Below, in pieces: positions 87 to 33,164 of a stretch of 33,201 nucleotides of DNA. This DNA comes from Campylobacterales bacterium (GTDB lineage: Bacteria; Campylobacterota; Campylobacteria; Campylobacterales; QNZT01), in assembly GCA_029935075.1 (NCBI GenBank), contig JAOZKZ010000004.1, forward strand, positions 1 to 33,201, in the 5' to 3' direction. Position 1 is the stretch's first letter. Every line of letters starts with the position of its first letter. The position numbers and the translations under genes are program-made. Under the pieces are notes generated by a model. It was not told where the DNA came from, did no database searches, and worked only from the letters and a program-made list of their open reading frames with translations.

Positions 87-166
87 ATTTATGTTATAGT
101 GTAAATACACCCGTTTTACCAAAGAAAACACCCCAAAAAGAGGGGTATTTATGTTATGGTGTAAAT
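87..166. repeat. 20-bp direct repeat ATTTATGTTATRGTGTAAAT, two copies with 60-bp period
   Basis: 87-106 and 147-166 match at 19/20 positions; a short CCCC/GGGG hairpin lies between them. Confidence 0.75.
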
Positions 167-1050
167 CAAGCGGAGAAAATACCCAAGGCTTCTGAATACC
201 TTGATAGCAATTCTTCATCTAATTTGTCTATCTCTGTTTGAGCTTCTTGTGCTAATTTATCATAGTTAATAGTAGCCCCACCAATAAGGCTCTGAGAATA
301 CTTGCCAACATTTCCTGACCAGACCCTTTTAGCCAAATTTAGGCTATAAGCCTTAATCCATGGATGACCATAAGCGTCATCAAAGTCAGGGTTTGGTCTG
401 TACTCCAGAGCCGCTTCTATAAAGACATTGGCACCAACGGATTCAAATATTCTTAGTATATGTGTTTGATTATTAAAATCAAAAGCCACTGAAGACCCAA
501 ACATTGAACCCATCATTTGAGATTGAACCATCTGTGTATAGGCTACTTCCATTTGTTCCAATGGATTCCCAGAGGTAGCAGGACCACCTGTGACACCACC
601 TGCCACACCAGTAGCAGAATAGTTCCCTGAACCAGAGCCTGTTTCTAATGATGATACATTACCTTGAAGGTCAACATAAGGGATATAAGATATACCTATT
701 TCACCGAAACCACCAAGGGATATCCCTGCTCCCCCGGCATTATTGTAGCTTGATGTAGAATCCGCTATATTAATACCATAGATAGCCGTAATCCTGTCGT
801 CTATGTAGTAATCCTGTATATCAGAGGTACAAGGGATAACAAACCCCATGTTTTGTTGACCGTCCAGGGCGAAGGCGGAAAATTTGTCGAAACTGTCGTC
901 AATGCAATTCAGGATTTGTTTCCTTGAGATATCTATTGTGATCATTCCTGAGCCAAGCTGTGTTTTAATGTAATCTACTAAACGAGCTTCAGTGTTTACT
1001 CTTCTTGAGTTCTGGGCAAGGTTGATGTTTTTTGGTTGATTTCTAGTCAT
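166..1050 (-). CDS. gp13: T4 gp13-like neck (head-tail adaptor) protein
   Basis: N-terminal YIKTQLG..ITIDIS..QILNCIDDS and C-terminal WIKAYSLNLAKRVW..NVGKY..L.GGATIN....QEAQTEI..L.EEL are typical of gp13; head-module context. Confidence 0.85.
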   Translation of the reverse strand: MTRNQPKNINLAQNSRRVNTEARLVDYIKTQLGSGMITIDISRKQILNCIDDSFDKFSAFALDGQQNMGFVIPCTSDIQDYYIDDRITAIYGINIADSTSSYNNAGGAGISLGGFGEIGISYIPYVDLQGNVSSLETGSGSGNYSATGVAGGVTGGPATSGNPLEQMEVAYTQMVQSQMMGSMFGSSVAFDFNNQTHILRIFESVGANVFIEAALEYRPNPDFDDAYGHPWIKAYSLNLAKRVWSGNVGKYSQSLIGGATINYDKLAQEAQTEIDKLDEELLSRYSEALGIFSA

Positions 1051-1067: not shown

Positions 1068-1079
1068 TATTTATAAATA
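1068..1079. promoter_or_regulatory. Overlapping divergent T4-type late promoters (palindrome TATTTATAAATA)
   Basis: TATAAATA on minus (1068-1075, drives gp13) and on plus (1072-1079). Confidence 0.8.
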
Positions 1080-1157
1080 AAGTGTAAGTTGATGAGATTA
1101 ATTACCTTTCTTGATTCCTGGTTGAGATAGCCTTACAATACTTAAAACAGGAACTTA
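1080..1157 (+). ncRNA. Conserved structured 5' leader, copy 1 (multi-stem, loop-RBS pseudoknot)
   Basis: AAGTGTAAGTTGATG...AGATAGCCTTACAA shared with 6603-6679(-) and 31851-31932(+); loop TCCTG (1116-1120) is complementary to CAGGA (1148-1152). Confidence 0.7.
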
Positions 1158-2234
1158 ATGAATAAAAGAAAAACCACTAATCAATTTATAAAAGAAGCTC
1201 AAGTTAAACATAACAATTTCTACGGCTATAAAAAAGTTTTTTATAAAAATAATTACACACCAATAACCATAACATGCCCCGTGCATGGTGATTTTGAGAA
1301 AAGACCATCACATCATTTAACGGGCTCTGGGTGTCCAAGTTGTTTAAAGTGTCACAAAAGAAAAACCACTACTCAATTCATAAAAGAAGCTCAAGCTAAA
1401 CATAACAATTTTTACGGCTATGATAAAGCAGTATATATTACTAATAGAACATCAATAACCATAACATGCCCCGTGCATGGTGATTTTGAACAAAGACCAT
1501 CACATCATTTAAAAGGTTCTGGTTGTAAATGTTGTTCAGACACAAAACGAAACAATGATCAAAAAGATACTGTTTTGTCTTTTGTTGAAAAGGCAAACAT
1601 AAAACATAAAAACCATTACGGTTATGATAAAGTAATCTATATATCATCATCAGAGAAGGTAAAAATAACATGCCCCGTGCATGGTGATTTTGAACAAATA
1701 CCTAACTCCCATTTAAGGGGGTCAGGTTGTCCAAGTTGTGGTGTTAAAAATACACCTATAAAAAATTTCATAAAAAGATGTCAAAAAATCCACAACAATT
1801 TTTACAACTATGACAAGGTTTTATACAATATACTATCTGATAAAGTAACTATAACATGCCCCGTGCATGGTGATTTTGAACAAAATGGTAATTGTCATTT
1901 AAGGGGTCAGGGTTGTCCAAGTTGTGGAAATACAAAGAGCATCATTAGTAAATACAAGGATAAACAAACTACTATATACTATATATATTTTCCAGAGTTT
2001 AATTTGTATAAGATTGGTTTAACCCAATCAAGCATAAAAAGAAGATATGAGCAAGACAATATAAAAATAGAAACAATATCAACAAAAATATTTAAGGATG
2101 GTTCAGATGCTCTTAAACTTGAACAAAATGTTTTAAAATACTATAAAAAATACCAGTACAAAGGGAAGAAAATACTTAAAGGTGGAAATACTGAATTGTT
2201 TACTGAGGATGTTTTGTCAGACTTTTATAAATAA
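1158..2234 (+). CDS. Putative homing endonuclease: four Zn-ribbon repeats (DUF723/CapR-like) plus C-terminal GIY-YIG-like domain
   Basis: 4x ITCPVHGDFEQ..HL.G.GC..C; C-terminal TIYYIYF..NLYKIGLT..IKRR..LEQ..GNTELF. Confidence 0.75.
   Translation: MNKRKTTNQFIKEAQVKHNNFYGYKKVFYKNNYTPITITCPVHGDFEKRPSHHLTGSGCPSCLKCHKRKTTTQFIKEAQAKHNNFYGYDKAVYITNRTSITITCPVHGDFEQRPSHHLKGSGCKCCSDTKRNNDQKDTVLSFVEKANIKHKNHYGYDKVIYISSSEKVKITCPVHGDFEQIPNSHLRGSGCPSCGVKNTPIKNFIKRCQKIHNNFYNYDKVLYNILSDKVTITCPVHGDFEQNGNCHLRGQGCPSCGNTKSIISKYKDKQTTIYYIYFPEFNLYKIGLTQSSIKRRYEQDNIKIETISTKIFKDGSDALKLEQNVLKYYKKYQYKGKKILKGGNTELFTEDVLSDFYK
2226..2233 (+). promoter_or_regulatory. Late promoter TATAAATA for portal gene
   Basis: Exact consensus about 20 bp upstream of the portal ATG; overlaps the stop of the upstream endonuclease. 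Confidence 0.8.
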
Positions 2235-2252: not shown

Positions 2253-3788
2253 ATGACCTTATTTGAGAAATTAAAAAAATCTTTTACCAGAGATGATACC
2301 TCTATTAAGAACCCTAGTTCTGAAACAGACCTGATTCACAGAACCAAGGAACTAACCAACGATCCTTTTGGCGGAAGTATGGTACTTTCACAGGTAGACA
2401 ACCAGGACTATAACTTCAACCAGGGATTAGATGTACAGACATTCCAGAACTCTATTATCGAAAGATACAGGGAACTAGCAACTGATTCTGAAGTTTCTTC
2501 AGGCATAGACATCATAATCATGGAAATGATATACACTATCAATAAAGACACCTTCAAGATAGACATAGACGAAGAAAACGACAAAATTAAAGACCTTTTA
2601 TCTAAGACCTTTGATGATGTCTTGGCTTTATTGAATATAAAAGAAAACATTTTCAATATATGTAGACAATGTTATATAGATGGTCAGTTAAATGTAGCAT
2701 TGGTTTATCAACAAGGCAAGGTAAAAGAAGGAATAAAAAAATCATATCTCCTGGAACCCCAAGGGCTTTATTACGACAAAGCCTCTGAATCTTGGAAGTA
2801 CTCAGAGGATACTAATAACAACAGTCTTTATCAACAAGACGACACCAAAGGCGAAGTGTATTCAGAATCTGAATTAGTCCATGTTGACTTCGGTTTGTAT
2901 AGTAAATTCATAGATGATTCCAAACAGACTACTCAGATTAACCTTGGGTACCTTGAAGGTGTCTTCAAGAATGCCAATATGCTTCAGACCCTTGAAAATA
3001 TGCTTGTGCCTATGCGTTACTCTAGGTCAGTTTCAAGAAGAATGTTCAATATAGATGTTGCCGATCTGCCCCCAAAGCAAGCCAAAGAACTAATGGATAA
3101 AATCCGTAATGAGTTCAGGTATAAAAAATCTTATGACCCAAGTACAGGTGTTATCAAAAACATCAAGAGTACCCAGCCAATGGTAGAGGATTACTGGATG
3201 AGCAACCGTTCAGGGGCAAGAGGAACCACCGTAGATACCATGGATGAAAAGGGTGGTTTAATGGACATGGAAGACATCAGATACACTGCCAAAAAACTAT
3301 ACCAGAGTATGAAAATTCCATCATCAAGGAACCCTTATTCAGAAGAACAGCCGTCTTTTAGCTTTGATGACACCAGTATCACCCAAGAAGAACTATCTTT
3401 TTATATATTTGTATCCAGGCTGAGAATACCTATTACAAAGATGATTAAAGAAATCATGCGTAGACAACTAGTATCTACTGGTCAAATGACAGACACAGAG
3501 TGGAAAAATTTCGAGAAAAAAATAAATGTGTCTTTTACTAATGATGCTATTTTCCTAGAGAATATGAAAGCAGAGTTGTTCTTAAAGGCGATAGAAAACT
3601 TCGCTGGAATAAAAGACAACATAGGTGAGACAATCTCGTTACAAACAGCCGTAGAAAACACCTTTGGTTGGAGCACTGAACAACTCGATACAGAGTTAGA
3701 GAAAATGCTAAAAGAGCAAGAAAATCCCCTTTATTCTGCATTTTATGGTAGAAATGAAGAGGGTGATAATGACCCTTGGGCTTCTTAA
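2253..3788 (+). CDS. gp20: Portal vertex protein
   Basis: YRELA..EV..GID.I, YIDG, R.SR...RRMFNIDVADLP..QA, MVEDYW...RSG.RGT.VDT, DI.Y..KKLY.SMKIPSSR, ITQEEL.F..FV.RLR motifs of T4 gp20. Confidence 0.95.
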   Translation: MTLFEKLKKSFTRDDTSIKNPSSETDLIHRTKELTNDPFGGSMVLSQVDNQDYNFNQGLDVQTFQNSIIERYRELATDSEVSSGIDIIIMEMIYTINKDTFKIDIDEENDKIKDLLSKTFDDVLALLNIKENIFNICRQCYIDGQLNVALVYQQGKVKEGIKKSYLLEPQGLYYDKASESWKYSEDTNNNSLYQQDDTKGEVYSESELVHVDFGLYSKFIDDSKQTTQINLGYLEGVFKNANMLQTLENMLVPMRYSRSVSRRMFNIDVADLPPKQAKELMDKIRNEFRYKKSYDPSTGVIKNIKSTQPMVEDYWMSNRSGARGTTVDTMDEKGGLMDMEDIRYTAKKLYQSMKIPSSRNPYSEEQPSFSFDDTSITQEELSFYIFVSRLRIPITKMIKEIMRRQLVSTGQMTDTEWKNFEKKINVSFTNDAIFLENMKAELFLKAIENFAGIKDNIGETISLQTAVENTFGWSTEQLDTELEKMLKEQENPLYSAFYGRNEEGDNDPWAS

Positions 3789-4548: not shown

Positions 4549-5610
4549 TTATACCTCGTGTGATTGGTGTATCATATCAAATTCCGTATAGTCAGGGTAA
4601 ACGAACCTCTGCATCATGTTGTCATAGACCTCTTCAGGAATTTTTTTATCTTTAGTATTTCTACCGAGACATGTATCCTTGGACTCCAAAAAGACTATAC
4701 ATTTCTTAAAATAACCTTTTAGTTTACTGTCGTGGAGCCATTTCTTACGGCTTTTTTTAGACATATTCGTCATGTCTATTACTATATCCTTCTGGTCTCT
4801 AAGGGCACCTTGAAAATCTTGTTGTATCTTTTTATCTATCTCTTTATGCTCTTCTTTCCCGAGCCTTAAGAAAACTTCATTGTAAGTCTCATTATTAGAA
4901 TATTCCATCAGGGTGTCATCCCTTGATATAATTACCACCCCGCTATCAGGGTTTTGTTCCTTGAGGTATCTTGCCTTGGTACTCTTACCGCTACTGGGTA
5001 AGCCTACCAAGAGAGTGATCATCCTTGGGGGTAGAACCTTAGTTTGGTCTTCTTTATACCATCTCAGGATATCATCAAAGTCATGGTATACCTCGTGATT
5101 ATCCTTTGCATTGTTTACCCTGCCTTGGTGGTCGTATCGGTAAAACCTGAACATATCCTTCAGGTCTTCTTTTCTGAATCTTTCCCTGATTTTTTTAAAG
5201 TGTTTCTCAGGAATTCTTTGGTCTTCAAAAAAGTTATACAAGGCACCATGGTTGGCTATCACCTTAAGGATTCTTGCTTTATCCCATGGCTCAAGCTCAG
5301 GGAAGCTTTTTATTACCCCTGCGGCATAGAATGTGCTCACTGCTTCATGGTTATTGAATCTTCGTCTTTGGTTACTAAAGTTGTCCTGAAAGACAAAGAC
5401 CTTACCTATATCATGACACAAACAAGCCACCTTCATCCAGAGGTCGCTTTGCTCTGCTTCTTTTAAGACCATTAGGGTGTGAGCCCAGACATTTTCGGCA
5501 TGCATAGGGTTTAAATGAATACCCAAGTAACCGTGTTCGGTTTCCTTCATCAGTTTATACAAATCGTAATGATTCTCGTAAAAACGCTCTATAACTTCAT
5601 AAGTAGTCAT
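4549..5610 (-). CDS. HD-domain phosphohydrolase fused to P-loop (AAA_33/Pnk-like) kinase
   Basis: H.ENVWAHT..V, CLCHDIGK, NHEAVS, ANHG, DHQGR; then LLVGLPSSGKST, ISRDD, IVIDMTN; ATG at 5610 with GGAG SD. Confidence 0.85.
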   Translation of the reverse strand: MTTYEVIERFYENHYDLYKLMKETEHGYLGIHLNPMHAENVWAHTLMVLKEAEQSDLWMKVACLCHDIGKVFVFQDNFSNQRRRFNNHEAVSTFYAAGVIKSFPELEPWDKARILKVIANHGALYNFFEDQRIPEKHFKKIRERFRKEDLKDMFRFYRYDHQGRVNNAKDNHEVYHDFDDILRWYKEDQTKVLPPRMITLLVGLPSSGKSTKARYLKEQNPDSGVVIISRDDTLMEYSNNETYNEVFLRLGKEEHKEIDKKIQQDFQGALRDQKDIVIDMTNMSKKSRKKWLHDSKLKGYFKKCIVFLESKDTCLGRNTKDKKIPEEVYDNMMQRFVYPDYTEFDMIHQSHEV

Positions 5611-5612
5611 TG

Positions 5613-6602
5613 TTAAATCTCCCACATTTTTAAATTTTTTGTTATCGGTTTTGAAAATACTCTCATATTACTTAAATGTTTATATTTAACGATAGATGTA
5701 TTCTTATTGATTCTATTTTTTATAAACTTCGATGTTGTGCCTATAGTTTTAGCAAATATTTCAAGTATATATTCATTAATAAATCTATATGTATTTTCAC
5801 CAATCTCAATAACAGTGACATTTCTTTTACTACACCCTGTCACATAGGGATTGTTCATAAATTCATCTAAATCGACTCTACGATATTCCATAGTTTTTAT
5901 ATTCAAAGATGATATAGTGTGTTTAGACAAAGTTGATAATTTGTCATGCCTATGTTGTTTCGTTTCTTTTGTTTCGTTTAGAAACTGGTTTTTAGCAGAA
6001 ATACTTCTAAAATTACTCCATGATTTTAGCTCATCTTGAGTCTTATTCTTCCAACATAGTGTTATTTTATCATTTCGTTTATCTTTATCATCTTGAGTCT
6101 TATTATTCCAATTTTCCTTAAGTTTTTGTGCACTCTCTTCTATCCTAGTCAATCCATTTTCTTGTACTGTTTTCATTGTTTTTTGTCGTTTCAATATACC
6201 TATTTTATCAGTACCACGGATTCTCATTGTTTCCCAAGCTTTTTTTGATGATCTTTGATAATCATTAATCCCGTTTTCATCCGGTGTTAATCTCCTTAAT
6301 ACTGTTTCTGGTTTTTCTCCTCCTCTTACACCACCATTACCACCCACACATAAATTATATGAAGTTCTATCTTGTACTATTGTTTCATCAACTATCATTC
6401 TTTCTATCCAAAACATTATCTCAGATGAGCGAAAAACACCTAGTACCAATTTCTCAAAATTTTCTTTTTTATATTTTAATACAGCTTGTTTTATTAGCAA
6501 TCCAGACCCTAAATATTCATCATTTATATCCAATGTTTGGTGAGCCCCAATGTAGTAATTATTGTTTATTTTATTTTTTGTTTCGTATATAGTATAATAC
6601 AT
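5613..6602 (-). CDS. Seg-like GIY-YIG homing endonuclease
   Basis: N-terminal YTIYETKNKINNNYYIGAH...YLGSG..I..A..KY..ENF.K...E......YNL..GG.GG. Confidence 0.85.
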   Translation of the reverse strand: MYYTIYETKNKINNNYYIGAHQTLDINDEYLGSGLLIKQAVLKYKKENFEKLVLGVFRSSEIMFWIERMIVDETIVQDRTSYNLCVGGNGGVRGGEKPETVLRRLTPDENGINDYQRSSKKAWETMRIRGTDKIGILKRQKTMKTVQENGLTRIEESAQKLKENWNNKTQDDKDKRNDKITLCWKNKTQDELKSWSNFRSISAKNQFLNETKETKQHRHDKLSTLSKHTISSLNIKTMEYRRVDLDEFMNNPYVTGCSKRNVTVIEIGENTYRFINEYILEIFAKTIGTTSKFIKNRINKNTSIVKYKHLSNMRVFSKPITKNLKMWEI

Positions 6603-6687
6603 GTATTCTCCATTTTAAGATTGTAAGGCTATCTTCATCGGAGAATGAAGAGGGTTCCGAACCCCATCAACTTACACTTTATTTATA
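6603..6687 (-). ncRNA. Late promoter plus conserved structured leader, copy 2
   Basis: Minus strand reads TATAAATA AAGTGTAAGTTGATG GGGTTCGGAACCC TCTTCAT-TCTCCG-ATGAAGA TAGCCTTACAA...TGGAGAATACATG. Confidence 0.7.
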
Positions 6688-8413: not shown

Positions 8414-8521
8414 TTATTCAAAACTACCCACTAATGTAGGGTTTACCATAGCATGCTTAAGTGACCAATAACTAGAGAATATCACTATTACTATAATCAC
8501 TGCTATTACAAATTTATTCAC
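8414..8521 (-). CDS. Small membrane peptide (35 aa, not in ORF track)
   Basis: GTG start overlapping the rnl2 end; VNKFVIAVIIVIVIFSSYWSLKHAMVNPTLVGSFE*; fills the gap exactly. Confidence 0.5.
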   Translation of the reverse strand: MNKFVIAVIIVIVIFSSYWSLKHAMVNPTLVGSFE

Positions 8522-9590
8522 CAGACCCCCCGAGGGCCTCTCTTAGTATCTCAGCTTTTATATAATCTCTTGTTATGTTACTGATGTATTTCTGGATGTC
8601 TTTAATCTCAAGATCATATTCCACAAAGCCTTGGGTTTCTTCTTTGATTACATCATTCAAGACCCATTTGATTATATTACCCATCATTTTAATTTCTAAT
8701 CTACCGCCATTATTAAGGTCTGCTACCTCTTGAATTCCCTGATTGAGTCTACAAACAGGCGTTACCTTCTCGGCTAGTTCTTGCTTTACCTGTTCAAGGG
8801 GGTCTTTTACCTTGGGTTGTTTTTCTTTGGTTCCTTTGGAATGAGATTCGCCTTTAACCTTGAAAATATACCTCTGGTTGTTATTATACCCTACAAAAAC
8901 TCCGCCTTCTCCAACACCGATATATCCCAATTCTCTGGCTACCGGGCACTCTTTATCCACCTTAAGGATGTATTCATTAATTTTGTTGTAGGCTTCCTTA
9001 GGGTCGTTAAAGTCTATAACGAACTTTTTTGTTTCAAAATCAAATAGATTATAGATACCTTTTTCAGGGTCGGTGAATTTTTCAATAATCTCTTTGGGGT
9101 TTTTTTCCCATGAGCCTTCTGTGGTATCCTCGTCATAGTTAACACTGGTGTATTTAACCCCAAAGACAAAGAAAGACTTTTTTAAGAGTTTGTTAATCCC
9201 TGTGTTTTTTTGAATCCCTGGTCCTGCGAACTCTCCCATCAAGGATACCTCTATTATACTACCGTCTCTTCTAATAGAATTTTCAAAAAGATCGTTTAAT
9301 TTCTCCGTGAAATAGTCTTCATTTTTCTGGACAAACATAGCAAACCCTGCGTTGTCCTTCATAGGGGTTATCTTTGAGCCTTTTGAATAAACCTTAAGGA
9401 AAATTCCATCATAAGCAACCCTGGCAAAAGTCCCGTGTAGTTTTACCGTGCTTTTGAACTCTATTTCAGGCAAAGGCAGGGTTTCGTCTGTAATGACAGT
9501 CCCGTCTACTTCTGTCCTGATGTAATAAGTCTCTCTTTTGATATCAAAAACGGTGTCCTCGAATTTACCAATACTTGTCATATTTGCCAT
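8514..9590 (-). CDS. RNA ligase, Rnl2 family
   Basis: Motif I TVKLHGT, DNAGFA, GEFAGPGIQK (III), FFVFGV (IIIa), GEGGVF (IV), FKVKGE.HS (V); Rnl2-type C-terminal domain. Confidence 0.88.
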   Translation of the reverse strand: MANMTSIGKFEDTVFDIKRETYYIRTEVDGTVITDETLPLPEIEFKSTVKLHGTFARVAYDGIFLKVYSKGSKITPMKDNAGFAMFVQKNEDYFTEKLNDLFENSIRRDGSIIEVSLMGEFAGPGIQKNTGINKLLKKSFFVFGVKYTSVNYDEDTTEGSWEKNPKEIIEKFTDPEKGIYNLFDFETKKFVIDFNDPKEAYNKINEYILKVDKECPVARELGYIGVGEGGVFVGYNNNQRYIFKVKGESHSKGTKEKQPKVKDPLEQVKQELAEKVTPVCRLNQGIQEVADLNNGGRLEIKMMGNIIKWVLNDVIKEETQGFVEYDLEIKDIQKYISNITRDYIKAEILREALGGSGE

Positions 9591-27966: not shown

Positions 27967-28188
27967 TCAAAGAAAGTATTCAGGGTTGTCTTTAACAGTG
28001 ACTCTTTTTACAAGGTCAAAATGATGTTCTTGTTCCCAATACTTGCCTTGTAGGGTAAAAGCATATTGTTTCTCATTGGTGTTACATATTACAGGATAAC
28101 TAATACCGTCTTGTATTTCTGTTACTTGGAGTAGTTCGTTCTGCCTTGTTACATAATACTCATTTACTTTAATATTCATATCTTTCAT
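27967..28188 (-). CDS. PE-tag array protein (ends DNPEYFL)
   Basis: ATGA overlap; C-terminal tag. Confidence 0.8.
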   Translation of the reverse strand: MKDMNIKVNEYYVTRQNELLQVTEIQDGISYPVICNTNEKQYAFTLQGKYWEQEHHFDLVKRVTVKDNPEYFL

Positions 28189-28484
28189 AGGTAGTACTCT
28201 GGGTACAAGGACATCACCATGTCCTTTGCTGTAGGGTGGTTCATAATAATTTTAATGAGCCTGAATGCCCTCATGTCCGCTTCGCCATTGATATCAAGAT
28301 GTATACTCGTTTCTATCTGGTTGGGGTTTTTACATGCTATGTCATCTATCTCAACACTATTTTGGTCTTTGTCCGTGACTATTGCTATGGTAACAGCATC
28401 ATTTGAATCCTCCCCATCATTATACATGTACATTACTATGTCATTTATTTTCACATCGTGCCAGCTTGGTGATTTTGGGGTCAT
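28185..28484 (-). CDS. PE-tag array protein (ends LYPEYYL)
   Basis: AGGAG SD; C-terminal tag. Confidence 0.8.
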   Translation of the reverse strand: MTPKSPSWHDVKINDIVMYMYNDGEDSNDAVTIAIVTDKDQNSVEIDDIACKNPNQIETSIHLDINGEADMRAFRLIKIIMNHPTAKDMVMSLYPEYYL

Positions 28485-31842: not shown

Positions 31843-31932
31843 TATAAATAAAGTGTAAGTTGATGGTGTCGAAACCCTCTTGATTACCTATAGTCAAGAT
31901 AGCCTTACAAATTCTTCATATAGGAAAACAAA
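31843..31932 (+). ncRNA. Late promoter plus conserved structured leader, copy 3
   Basis: TATAAATA AAGTGTAAGTTGATG GTGTCGAAACCC TCTTGATT-ACCTAT-AGTCAAGA TAGCCTTACAA...ATAGGAAAACAAAATG. Confidence 0.7.
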
Positions 31933-32724
31933 ATGATAATATACAAAGCTACTTCAAACACATCAGGTAAAAGTTATATTGGCGCTACAAGCAGAACCAT
32001 AGAACTTAGACAAAAAGAACATGAAAAATTAGCAAATTTAAACCCCAAAAATAAACATTTTTATTACGCTTTACTAAAATACGGATACAACGATTTTGAT
32101 TGGTGTGTTTTAGAAGAAGCAGAAACACAAGAATTAATGTATATAAAAGAAAAAGAATATATTAAAAAATTTAACACATATTCTAAAGGATACAACATGA
32201 CACCAGGTGGAGAAGGAGGCAGATCTGGAAAATATTCAGAAGATGATAGAAAAAGACTTTACTCTAATAGAAAATATAATTCTGATAGCACGGGCAAAAA
32301 ATCAATGTACTTCTTAGGCATAAATAAGTGTAGATTTGTTGATAAAAAAGATATACCTTATTATCTTGAACAAGGGTGGATGATGGGATCGAAAAAAAGG
32401 TCTCTTAAAAAACATACTTGTAAACTACCACCCAAAAAAAAATATAGTACTAAGCCTTTTTTGACCGGATTAAATAACCCATCTGGGATGATAATAGAAA
32501 TCTACGACAATAATCACAACCTTGTAGTGACCTCCGAAGGGAGTTTAAAAAATGTTTGTAAAAAATTAGGTGTGCCTTATGGTCAAATAGCAAACAGTTT
32601 TAAAACGGGGGTGCCCTTATATCACAATACAAAAGACAATGTGATGACAAGGTTAAAAAACAATGGCAATATAAAATTCAAAGGTTGGTATGCGATTAAA
32701 ATACAAGATAAGGAAAGAAAATGA
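31933..32724 (+). CDS. GIY-YIG homing endonuclease
   Basis: IIYKAT...SGKSYIGAT....R..EH, AL.KYG..DF.W.VLE, KE.EYI....T...GYNMT.GGEG. Confidence 0.88.
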   Translation: MIIYKATSNTSGKSYIGATSRTIELRQKEHEKLANLNPKNKHFYYALLKYGYNDFDWCVLEEAETQELMYIKEKEYIKKFNTYSKGYNMTPGGEGGRSGKYSEDDRKRLYSNRKYNSDSTGKKSMYFLGINKCRFVDKKDIPYYLEQGWMMGSKKRSLKKHTCKLPPKKKYSTKPFLTGLNNPSGMIIEIYDNNHNLVVTSEGSLKNVCKKLGVPYGQIANSFKTGVPLYHNTKDNVMTRLKNNGNIKFKGWYAIKIQDKERK

Positions 32725-33164
32725 ACCGAAAAAGAGATAAGAAGAAACGAAAAAGAACATCAAGATACAAACAAGGGTTTTATAAGCCAATAAATGAAGA
32801 TAAATATAAGCAACCAGTAGACCGCACTATGAACAAGACTGAGTATCCAGAATACCGCTCGAGCTGGGAATTAGCATTTTATAAATTTTGTGATTTATCG
32901 GAAAAAGTAGAGTACTGGGGAACAGAAAGTTTCGCAATCAGATATCTATCACCAAAGGATAACAAAGTTCATCGTTATTATGTGGATATAGTAATGAAAA
33001 TGAAATCAGGGGAGAAACACCTCGTGGAAATCAAGCCAGAAAAGCAGACCCTTGATCCAGTAAACCTGGCGAAATTTCAGGCAGCGGAGGAATATTGTAA
33101 ACAAATACAGGCTACCTTTACCGTGGTCACAGAAAAAAATCTCAAATCTTGGGGGATGATTTAA
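32721..33164 (+). CDS. gp4: Head completion nuclease (T4 gp4-like, TnsA-like fold)
   Basis: G.YKP.N.DKY, YRSSWE..F..FCD, W..E...I.Y.SP.D.KVHRYY.D, LVEIKP, AK..AA..YC......F.VVTE. Confidence 0.9.
   Translation: MNRKRDKKKRKRTSRYKQGFYKPINEDKYKQPVDRTMNKTEYPEYRSSWELAFYKFCDLSEKVEYWGTESFAIRYLSPKDNKVHRYYVDIVMKMKSGEKHLVEIKPEKQTLDPVNLAKFQAAEEYCKQIQATFTVVTEKNLKSWGMI

What the first reader, a model, noticed from the sequence alone, without database searches (positions are those of the whole stretch)
1072..1160. Conserved structured RNA leader with a covarying loop-RBS pseudoknot upstream of three different GIY-YIG genes
Seen: copies at 1072-1157(+), 6603-6687(-) and 31843-31932(+) all read TATAAATA-AAGTGTAAGTTGATG-[small variable hairpin]-TCTT..stem-loop..AGA-TAGCCTTACAA-linker-RBS-ATG. 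The outer stem TGTAAG/CTTACA is invariant. The inner stems differ but stay paired (TCTTGAT/GTTGAGA, TCTTCAT/ATGAAGA, TCTTGATT/AGTCAAGA). Each loop matches its own SD region: TCCTG/CAGGA, TCTCCG/TGGAGA, CCTAT/ATAGG. The three downstream proteins have different architectures, so the RNA is more conserved than the ORFs. Established: T4 endonuclease genes such as I-TevI use simple RBS-occluding hairpins that late transcripts bypass. Here the whole element lies downstream of the late promoter. Inference: an undescribed cis-regulatory RNA (riboswitch-like or protein-responsive translational switch) or a nuclease-associated ncRNA; the invariant junction bases UUGAUG/UAGC suggest a binding pocket.
Basis: partly seen in the sequence, partly recalled or inferred. 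Interest (0 to 1): 0.88.

Follow-up and report, generated by a model that had tools for sequence, protein, structure and literature searches.

The report
Ribosome-site-masking leader of phage homing endonucleases
A T4-like phage from a hydrothermal-vent sample puts the same folded ~80-base RNA leader in front of several unrelated selfish nuclease genes, and a hairpin tip in that leader pairs with each gene's own ribosome binding site, most likely to hold down translation.

Summary
Three copies lie in the window. Three more lie on other phage contigs of the same metagenome-assembled genome (MAG), and two lie in a diverged relative phage from another metagenome. Every copy reads: TATAAATA (T4-type late-promoter box), an invariant 12 nt, a variable hairpin P2, a covarying hairpin P3, an invariant 11 nt, a linker, the Shine-Dalgarno (SD) site, then the start codon. 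The tip of P3 pairs with its own SD in five different sequence versions. Own pairs average -8.0 kcal/mol against -4.25 for swapped pairs, and only the true assignment among 120 permutations scores that well. P3 and P2 show compensatory changes. P1 is invariant and therefore unproven. All eight downstream genes encode homing endonucleases of three nuclease types (GIY-YIG, T5orf172 with zinc ribbons, HNH). Two identical leaders precede unrelated proteins. Ordinary late genes of this phage have 10-25 nt unstructured leaders. There is no Rfam match and no copy in cultured phages or IMG/VR.

Best reading: a portable late-promoter-plus-leader cassette that masks the SD and damps nuclease translation. 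This is a new variant of the known T4 control of homing endonucleases by hairpins that hide the ribosome binding site. Here the masking arm lies downstream of the promoter. A switch that senses a ligand or a protein is neither excluded nor supported.

The parts
1072..1079 (+). TATAAATA, T4-type late-promoter box of leader copy 1. It overlaps a divergent box at 1068-1075(-) that serves gene 166-1050.
   Evidence: There are 66 such boxes on 7 phage contigs, and most sit directly before an SD and a start codon.
1080..1160 (+). Leader copy 1. P1 is 1083-1088 paired with 1132-1137. Junction UUGAUG is 1089-1094. P2 is 1095-1107. P3 is 1109-1127. Junction UAGC is 1128-1131. The linker is 1138-1147. 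The start codon is 1158-1160.
   Evidence: Covariance-model E-value 1e-16.
1115..1120 (+). Anti-SD UUCCUG at the tip of P3, copy 1.
   Evidence: 6 bp with CAGGAA, -8.3 kcal/mol.
1148..1153 (+). Shine-Dalgarno CAGGAA of copy 1.
1158..2234 (+). Homing-endonuclease gene with four zinc-ribbon repeats and a C-terminal T5orf172 domain. The late-promoter box for the portal gene (2226-2233) is embedded in its 3' end.
   Evidence: DUF723, DUF4379, T5orf172; phrog_681, E 1e-78.
6600..6687 (-). Leader copy 2. The box is 6687-6680. P1 is 6676-6671 paired with 6627-6622. P3 is 6651-6632. The anti-SD UUCUCCG is 6645-6639. The SD UGGAGAA is 6612-6606. The start codon is 6602-6600.
   Evidence: -8.6 kcal/mol; E 5e-13.
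5613..6602 (-). Homing-endonuclease gene with a GIY-YIG-like N-terminus.
   Evidence: phrog_314, E 4e-26; no Pfam hit.
31843..31935 (+). Leader copy 3. The box is 31843-31850. P1 is 31854-31859 paired with 31904-31909. P3 is 31878-31899. The anti-SD CCUAUA is 31887-31892. The SD UAUAGG is 31919-31924. The start codon is 31933-31935.
   Evidence: -5.9 kcal/mol; E 2e-11.
31933..32724 (+). GIY-YIG homing-endonuclease gene.
   Evidence: PF01541, E 1e-7; phrog_314, phrog_7168, phrog_5123.

Best explanation
The element is a portable expression cassette for free-standing homing-endonuclease genes of a T4-like phage lineage. It consists of a late-promoter box followed by a ~75-80 nt 5' leader. The leader folds into a variable hairpin (P2) stacked on a hairpin (P3), probably closed by a short helix (P1) at or near the 5' end of the late transcript. 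The tip of P3 is an anti-Shine-Dalgarno sequence that pairs with the gene's own SD. This pairing could form a pseudoknot on the three-way junction or a nested long-range helix. Either way it lowers ribosome access, so a nuclease gene driven by a strong late promoter is translated only weakly.

Shown here: the conservation, the covariation of P3 and P2, the covariation of P3 tip with SD, the exclusive link to homing-endonuclease genes, and the contrast with ordinary late leaders.
Inferred: that TATAAATA is an active late promoter, where transcription starts, that SD pairing lowers translation, and that P1 forms.

The invariant 12 + 11 nt around the junction are under purifying selection for a reason not yet known. 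They may serve the tertiary fold or a trans-acting factor.
For: (1) There are eight copies, seven of them distinct. Six are in the MAG and two are in L131 and L132.
(2) P3 tip against SD: there are five distinct versions (UUCCUG/CAGGAA, UUCUCC/GGAGAA, UCCCGU/ACGGGA, CCUAUA/UAUAGG, UCCUC/GAGGA). Own duplexes average -8.0 kcal/mol against -4.25 for swapped pairs. Each own pair is the best in its row and column, and 1 of 120 permutations (the true assignment itself) scores as well.
(3) Pair counts: 97.0% of cells are paired against 86.8% in shuffles (0 of 500 shuffles reach the observed value). Six pairs have changes on both sides, three of them in P3 and three in P2. Partners slid by 1-3 columns give 28-55% paired.
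(4) All 8 downstream ORFs are homing endonucleases of three nuclease types.
(5) The C63a and C63b leaders are identical over 82 nt apart from the start codon. Their proteins share nothing (best E 1.4).
(6) Ordinary late genes of the same phage have short A-rich leaders with an AAAGGA-type SD. The energy needed to open positions -14 to +3 is 3.8-8.3 kcal/mol in 7 of 8 leader copies, against a median of 1.5 for 39 other late genes. The copies are related, so the test p-value overstates the case.
(7) L131 and L132 come from a phage whose flanking genes are only 55-62% identical in protein to the window's genes. TGTAAGTTGATG and AGATAGCCTTA are nevertheless invariant, while P2, the top of P3, the tip and the SD differ.
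(8) Contigs of the source sample show at least three further variants that keep the AGATAGCCTTAC block. One has a new P3 pair type (loose ends only).
(9) Precedent: T4 I-TevI, I-TevII, I-TevIII, segB and Aeh1 mobE hide their ribosome binding sites in RNA structure next to late promoters (PMC2988022, passages read).
Against: - There are no expression, structure-probing or translation data, and no RNA run holds the sequence.
- P1 has no covariation, so the three-way junction is not proven.
- MFE folds are not more stable than shuffled sequence, with z-scores from -1.35 to +1.13.
- The free MFE contains P1 in only 1 of 7 variants and P3 in 4 of 7.
- For copy C1, nested folding predicts an open ribosome binding site (1.15 kcal/mol).
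- The anti-SD overlaps the top pairs of P3 in several copies, so the pseudoknot and the full P3 compete.
- Six other endonuclease-like genes on the phage contigs lack the leader, so it is not needed by every such gene.
- A plain damper does not explain why 23 junction/P1 bases are invariant.
- The family is small and its members are related, so the shuffle statistics overstate independence.
- The alignment used for the pair counts was fitted to the model structure.
Confidence: 0.55

Rival explanations
1. Regulated switch. The invariant junction (UUGAUG and AGAUAGC plus P1) would be a binding site for a small ligand or for a phage or host RNA-binding protein. Binding would stabilise or open the pairing of tip and SD, so nuclease translation would be conditional. 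This is riboswitch-like, or operator-like in the manner of the T4 gene 32, regA and gene 43 operators.
For: - 12 + 11 nt are invariant across two phages whose flanking proteins are 55-62% identical, while the neighbouring helices drift and compensate.
- The architecture resembles riboswitch expression platforms, with a multi-helix junction and a loop that takes the SD.
- A plain damper would not need an invariant junction.
Against: - No Rfam family matches, even at E up to 10, over the six MAG loci.
- The downstream genes are selfish nucleases, not metabolic or transport genes, so no ligand suggests itself.
- No candidate binding protein was identified.
- Invariance could equally serve tertiary packing, or the initially transcribed region of the promoter for the 5' block.
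- There are only 7 distinct sequences.
Confidence: 0.2
2. T4-style temporal bypass. Late transcripts would start about 6 nt after the box and so lack part of the P1 5' strand. They would fold differently from read-through transcripts made from upstream promoters, and only one class would be translated.
For: - The T4 late box sits at the -10 position, about one helical turn before the start site (PMC2988020 passage). That places the start at or near the GU of GUGUAAG, inside P1.
- Five of the six MAG copies follow a co-directional upstream ORF.
- This mechanism is documented for I-TevI, segB and mobE (PMC2988022).
Against: - The anti-SD lies downstream of the box in every copy, so both transcript classes carry it.
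- Nested folding shows no consistent change in opening energy between 5' ends at box+6 and at 60 nt upstream: it rises in 2 of 6 copies and falls in 4 of 6.
- Copy 1 faces a divergent gene, so no upstream read-through is expected there.
Confidence: 0.1
3. Leader-ORF coupling. The invariant AUG in UUGAUG would open a short upstream ORF that runs through P2 and P3. Ribosomes translating it would melt the anti-SD and so free the SD.
For: In 5 of 7 distinct copies the AUG is in frame with the invariant UAG of AGAUAGC or with an earlier UGA, giving ORFs of 9-12 codons. In copy 3 the ORF ends after 6 codons. I read this from the sequences.
Against: - There is no usable SD before this AUG, only about 9 nt of transcript by inference.
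- The peptides are unrelated in sequence and differ in length.
- In copy C1 the frame runs into the nuclease ORF.
- Frame agreement follows from the shared length of related copies.
Confidence: 0.05
4. DNA-level element only. The repeat would be a recombination or promoter cassette, comparable to PeSLs, with no RNA function.
For: - Identical leaders precede unrelated genes on one contig.
- The repeat begins exactly at the promoter box and ends at the start codon.
- PeSL cassettes mediate module shuffling in T4-like phages (PMC4122927 abstract).
Against: - The compensatory changes in P3 and P2 and the covariation of tip with SD are RNA-level signals.
- A role in shuffling may well exist in addition, but it cannot be the whole story.
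Confidence: 0.05

Closest known systems
Hairpins that sequester the ribosome binding site of T-even homing-endonuclease genes (I-TevI, I-TevII, I-TevIII, segB, Aeh1 mobE)
   Same: A T4-type late promoter sits directly upstream of a homing-endonuclease gene, the SD is held in RNA structure, and the presumed purpose is to limit or time nuclease synthesis (PMC2988022 passages).
   Different: - In those cases the late promoter lies inside the hairpin, so late transcripts lose the masking arm. Here the masking arm (the P3 tip) is 37-44 nt downstream of the box.
- Those hairpins are gene-specific. This leader is one conserved multi-helix design shared by 8 genes of 3 nuclease types, with 23 invariant bases.
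PeSL (promoter-early stem-loop) cassettes of T4-like phages
   Same: Both are short conserved regulatory cassettes repeated across a T4-like genome at the borders of variable genes, and both are plausible substrates for module exchange (PMC4122927 abstract).
   Different: - PeSLs combine a terminator with an early promoter. This element has a late-type box and a 5' UTR fold with no terminator-like site.
- This element is restricted to homing-endonuclease genes and carries RNA-level covariation.
Riboswitch pseudoknots that sequester the SD (preQ1-II, preQ1-III, SAM-II, SAM-V, SAM/SAH)
   Same: A hairpin loop or junction pairs with the SD to control initiation. This comparison is recalled knowledge, not a test.
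   Different: There is no Rfam match at gathering score or at E up to 10. There is no evidence for a ligand, and the gene context is non-metabolic.
T4 translational operators (the gene 32 pseudoknot, and the regA and gene 43 operators)
   Same: These are structured phage leaders next to the ribosome binding site, bound by a phage protein to repress translation. I recall this; review PMC3014915 was seen only in a search listing.
   Different: No binding protein is known here. The sequence and fold are unrelated, and the element is present on many genes rather than one.

Membership tests
T-even homing-endonuclease hairpin with embedded late promoter | The SD of the endonuclease gene is base-paired in a conserved RNA helix | tested here: met
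   5-6 bp of tip/SD pairing in all 7 distinct copies. The pairing covaries: own pairs -8.0 against swapped pairs -4.25 kcal/mol, and 1 of 120 permutations scores as well.
T-even homing-endonuclease hairpin with embedded late promoter | A T4-type late promoter lies directly upstream of the endonuclease ORF | tested here: met
   TATAAATA sits 78-90 nt before the start codon in all 8 copies. The same box precedes most late-type genes. Promoter activity is inferred.
T-even homing-endonuclease hairpin with embedded late promoter | The late promoter lies inside the inhibitory structure, so late transcripts lack the masking arm | tested here: not met
   The anti-SD lies 37-44 nt downstream of the box. 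Opening energies do not change consistently with the 5' end.
T-even homing-endonuclease hairpin with embedded late promoter | Translation is delayed to late infection | not testable with these tools
   No RNA or protein data are available; no RNA holder was listed.
Any Rfam 15 family (riboswitches, ribozymes, leaders) | A covariance-model score at or above the family's gathering threshold | tested here: not met
   0 matches in the window; 9 matches with E up to 10 in six loci, none overlapping a leader.
PeSL cassette | An early sigma-70-type promoter joined to a terminator stem-loop | tested here: not met
   The box is the late type. The scan of 900-2400 lists no terminator-like site at 1072-1160. 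It does list one sigma-70-like match that lies inside the leader (1111-1139, 9 of 12 positions), but such matches are no more frequent than in shuffles: 6 found against a mean of 7.3.
PeSL cassette | Repeated copies at the borders of variable or mobile genes | tested here: met
   There are 6 copies on 3 contigs of one phage, each at the 5' border of a homing-endonuclease gene.
Riboswitch (generic) | A conserved ligand-binding core and a ligand-dependent change of structure | not testable with these tools
   Invariant junction bases exist, but binding cannot be computed.

The most novel reading that the evidence does not exclude
The invariant three-way-junction core would be the sensor of a new class of translational switch dedicated to selfish nuclease genes. 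A phage or host factor, or a metabolite or physical cue such as temperature in a vent setting, would bind or melt it and release the SD from the P3 tip. All homing endonucleases carrying the cassette would then be switched on together at a defined moment of infection.
Probability: 0.2. Interest if true: 0.8.

Novelty: new variant of a known kind. Interest (0 to 1): 0.5.

Why it matters
Homing endonucleases must be expressed enough to spread but not enough to harm the phage. In T4 this balance is achieved gene by gene, with individual hairpins. Here one conserved leader is reused by at least eight nuclease genes from three nuclease types, and each copy keeps a private, covarying pairing between anti-SD and SD. 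That gives a natural set of compensatory variants with which to test how SD masking tunes translation. It also shows that regulatory 5' UTRs can travel as modules between unrelated mobile genes. Finally, the invariant junction is unexplained and may be a handle for a trans-acting regulator. The family is small, known from one phage lineage in vent samples, so its generality is unknown.

Tried and rejected
Searches for more members:
- IMG/VR viral contigs were scanned six times. The strict two-block pattern gave 0.
I examined 118 matches by script and none had leader features. This scan was truncated, so it is not exhaustive.
- A medium pattern gave 3 stretches, all chance.
- A three-block pattern that leaves P1 free gave 63 stretches. 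None scored at E up to 1 at the matched site with model R2.
- The promoter plus the 5' block gave 0.
- The portal protein gave no related locus.
- GTDB genome contigs gave 3 stretches, all chance.
- JGI metagenome contigs gave 8 stretches, of which 2 are real and 6 are chance.
- Cultured phages gave no match by megablast or blastn.
- In 150 relatives of the MAG there was one hit (G137, E 0.017). It lies inside a 226-aa ORF and I rejected it as chance.

Expression: no RNA holder was listed. Laying the sample's contigs on copy 1 gave only DNA contigs.

Structure ideas considered by eye and dropped, with no tool test:
- Hammerhead: UUGAUGR resembles CUGAUGA, but there is no GAAA between P2 and P3.
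- Kink-turn or box C/D: there is no GA on the opposite strand next to P1.
- tRNA-like: ARAGORN found no tRNA or tmRNA gene in the window.

A nested alternative pairs the P3 3' strand with the linker CUU. MFE folding prefers it for 3 of 7 copies. By my reading of the sequences, that helix is not kept in L131 or L132.

Supplementary files of papers were not consulted. Searches for prior descriptions of such a leader listed none; I saw listings and abstracts only.
Full report
WHAT IS THERE

The window is one whole 33.2 kb contig (C199) of a 2.4 Mb, 34% G+C metagenome-assembled genome. It is phage DNA. It encodes a T4-type portal (Pfam Portal_T4, E 1.5e-94) whose nearest cultured relatives are Campylobacter myoviruses at only 34% identity. 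The DNA occurs in runs labelled hydrothermal vent metagenome.

The two conserved blocks each occur exactly three times in the window. A pattern search and a fuzzy script search of the whole assembly find three more copies, one on C1 and two on C63, and nothing else convincing. A scan of JGI metagenome contigs returned 8 stretches. Two of them (L131, L132) are true copies with the promoter box, both blocks, P3 and an SD. The other six are chance.

ANATOMY

All eight copies read in the same order:
- TATAAATA;
- 3 variable bases;
- the invariant TGTAAGTTGATG;
- a variable hairpin P2;
- hairpin P3, whose base UCU/AGA is invariant and whose upper part varies;
- the invariant AGATAGCCTTA;
- a linker that usually contains CUU;
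- the SD;
- the start codon (alignment A2).

I built a covariance model on two equal-length copies with the P1/P2/P3 structure. I used it to realign all eight copies and rebuilt the model from that alignment. The second model finds exactly the six known copies in the assembly, at E 3e-18 to 2e-11.

IS THE STRUCTURE REAL?

Pair counts on the model-fitted alignment:
- 97.0% of cells are paired, against 86.8% in column shuffles (0 of 500 shuffles reach the observed value) and 28-55% when partners are slid by 1-3 columns.
- Six pairs have changes on both sides, three in P3 and three in P2.
- P1 has five invariant pairs and one GC-to-GU change, so it is compatible with pairing but unproven.

These caveats apply: the alignment was fitted to the structure, and the sequences are related.

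The central claim is that the P3 tip pairs with the gene's own SD. I tested it by computing duplex energies between every tip (loop plus 2 nt on each side) and every linker-plus-SD region. There are five distinct versions, with 5-6 bp each:
- UUCCUG/CAGGAA
- UUCUCC/GGAGAA
- UCCCGU/ACGGGA
- CCUAUA/UAUAGG
- UCCUC/GAGGA

Own pairs average -8.0 kcal/mol and swapped pairs -4.25. Each own pair is the best in its row and column, and among the 120 permutations only the true assignment scores that well. The common GGA/UCC core explains the residual energy of swapped pairs. The covariation lies in the flanking bases.

Results against a simple picture:
- MFE folds are no more stable than shuffled sequence (z from -1.35 to +1.13).
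- The free MFE contains P1 in 1 of 7 variants and P3 in 4 of 7.
- For three copies MFE prefers a nested helix, anti-SD:SD plus the P3 3' strand paired with the linker.
- P3 can also close down to a 3-4 nt loop, so the anti-SD overlaps the top of P3.

Pseudoknot or nested alternative, the SD is paired in both. The tools here cannot fold pseudoknots, so this stays open.

WHAT THE GENES ARE

All eight downstream ORFs are homing endonucleases, but of different builds:
- GIY-YIG: window 31933-32724, and C1 with NUMOD3.
- A phrog_314 enzyme with a GIY-YIG-like N-terminus: window 5613-6602.
- A SegE-like GIY-YIG, below the Pfam cut-off: C63a.
- Zinc-ribbon repeats with a C-terminal T5orf172/phrog_681 nuclease: window 1158-2234, C63b and, weakly, L131.
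- HNH with NUMOD3: L132.

The two C63 leaders are identical over 82 nt except for ATG versus GTG. Their proteins show no similarity (best E 1.4). Window 1158-2234 and C63b are 34% identical in protein, while their leaders differ only in P2. The leader is therefore exchanged or homogenised independently of the ORF.

Six further endonuclease-like ORFs on the phage contigs have no such leader: C3, two on C334, C307, C199:21052 and C199:25247. Some are translationally coupled or lie behind intein-like sequence.

CONTEXT

On seven phage contigs there are 66 TATAAATA boxes. Most are followed within 10-25 nt by an A-rich stretch, an AAAGGA-type SD and a start codon. The endonuclease leader is the exception, with about 60 extra structured bases inserted between box and SD.

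The energy needed to open positions -14 to +3 is 3.8-8.3 kcal/mol for 7 of the 8 copies (1.15 for C1). The median for 39 other late genes is 1.5 and the maximum is 8.8.

In T4 the 8-bp box sits at the -10 position, about one turn before the start site (PMC2988020, passage read). By analogy, transcription would begin at or inside the 5' strand of P1. Changing the modelled 5' end gives no consistent change in opening energy. I therefore find no support for a T4-style bypass.

SELECTION

L131 and L132 come from a diverged relative phage. Their flanking genes match window genes at 55% and 62% protein identity. The 12-nt and 11-nt blocks are nevertheless invariant, while P2, the top of P3, the tip, the linker and the SD differ. 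This patchwork argues for purifying selection on the blocks and compensatory drift in the helices, not for recent copying.

Laying the contigs of the source sample on copy 1 revealed, in loose ends, at least three further variants. One keeps AGATAGCCTTAC and has a new G-C pair at the fourth position of P3. Two have other SDs (GAGGAA-like and CAGGGA-like). I could not retrieve their full sequences.

COMPARISON WITH WHAT IS KNOWN

- Rfam 15 gives no match at gathering score in the window. At E up to 10 in six loci, no match overlaps a leader.
- Cultured phages, IMG/VR, GTDB genomes and 150 relatives gave no further copies. The single hit among the relatives lies inside a coding ORF.
- The closest known system is the set of ribosome-binding-site-sequestering hairpins with embedded late promoters of I-TevI, I-TevII, I-TevIII, segB and Aeh1 mobE (PMC2988022, passages). 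This element shares their logic but fails the defining feature that the promoter lies inside the inhibitory helix.
- It also resembles PeSL cassettes in being a repeated regulatory module (PMC4122927, abstract). Unlike them it has a late box, no terminator and RNA-level covariation.
- Two literature searches listed no description of such a leader (listings only).

VERDICT

The finding is a real, previously uncatalogued cis-regulatory leader. It is best read as a portable late-promoter-plus-SD-masking cassette that damps translation of homing endonucleases (confidence 0.55). The invariant junction remains unexplained and keeps a factor-responsive switch alive (0.2). I rate it a new variant of a known kind, of moderate interest, limited by the small family and the lack of any experimental data.

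Noticed in passing
window 2226-2233, inside the 3' end of ORF 1158-2234: The late-promoter box for the portal gene (2253-3788) is embedded in the end of the homing-endonuclease ORF. T4 shows the same arrangement, which favours retention of seg and mob genes.
   Followed up: partly
window 1068-1079: Two divergent late-promoter boxes overlap as TATTTATAAATA. One serves gene 166-1050(-) and the other serves leader copy 1(+).
   Followed up: no
window 6745-6671 (-): A 24-codon ORF with its own AAGGA SD reads through the promoter box of copy 2 and stops at the UAA inside the P1 5' strand (GUGUAAG). The box plus the 5' block carries stop codons in all three frames.
   Followed up: no
window 1273-1869: The palindromic motif CATGCCCCGTGCATG followed by GTGATTTTGA is repeated four times and scores as 'terminator-like' on both strands. 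These repeats are the coding repeats (CPVHGDFE zinc-ribbon modules) of the endonuclease, not terminators.
   Followed up: partly
window 4549-5625(-) and 8514-9590(-): An HD-domain plus polynucleotide-kinase-like protein and an RNA ligase lie close together. This suggests a phage RNA-repair pair.
   Followed up: no
window 32721-33164 (+): A TnsA-like endonuclease N-terminal domain ORF overlaps the stop of the GIY-YIG gene by 4 nt. It is a second nuclease-type gene directly coupled behind leader copy 3.
   Followed up: no
G000 contigs C307 (about 5100-5300, -) and C334 (about 28030-28230, +): Leaderless endonuclease-like ORFs sit directly behind sequence that translates to intein-like motifs (for example CTEDHEF and TCTPEHK). 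This recalls intein-associated or 'fractured gene' arrangements.
   Followed up: no
G000 contig C3, 6854-6826 (-): An HNH gene has TATAAATA-AAGT followed by a short unstructured leader. The same four bases follow the box in the structured leader, so this may be a cut-down relative.
   Followed up: no
leader linker, e.g. window 1140-1147: The linker ACUUAAAA nearly repeats the P1 3' strand CUUACAA. It could pair with the P1 5' strand (UAAGU/ACUUA) in 6 of 7 distinct copies. This is a possible alternative register and remains unexplained.
   Followed up: partly
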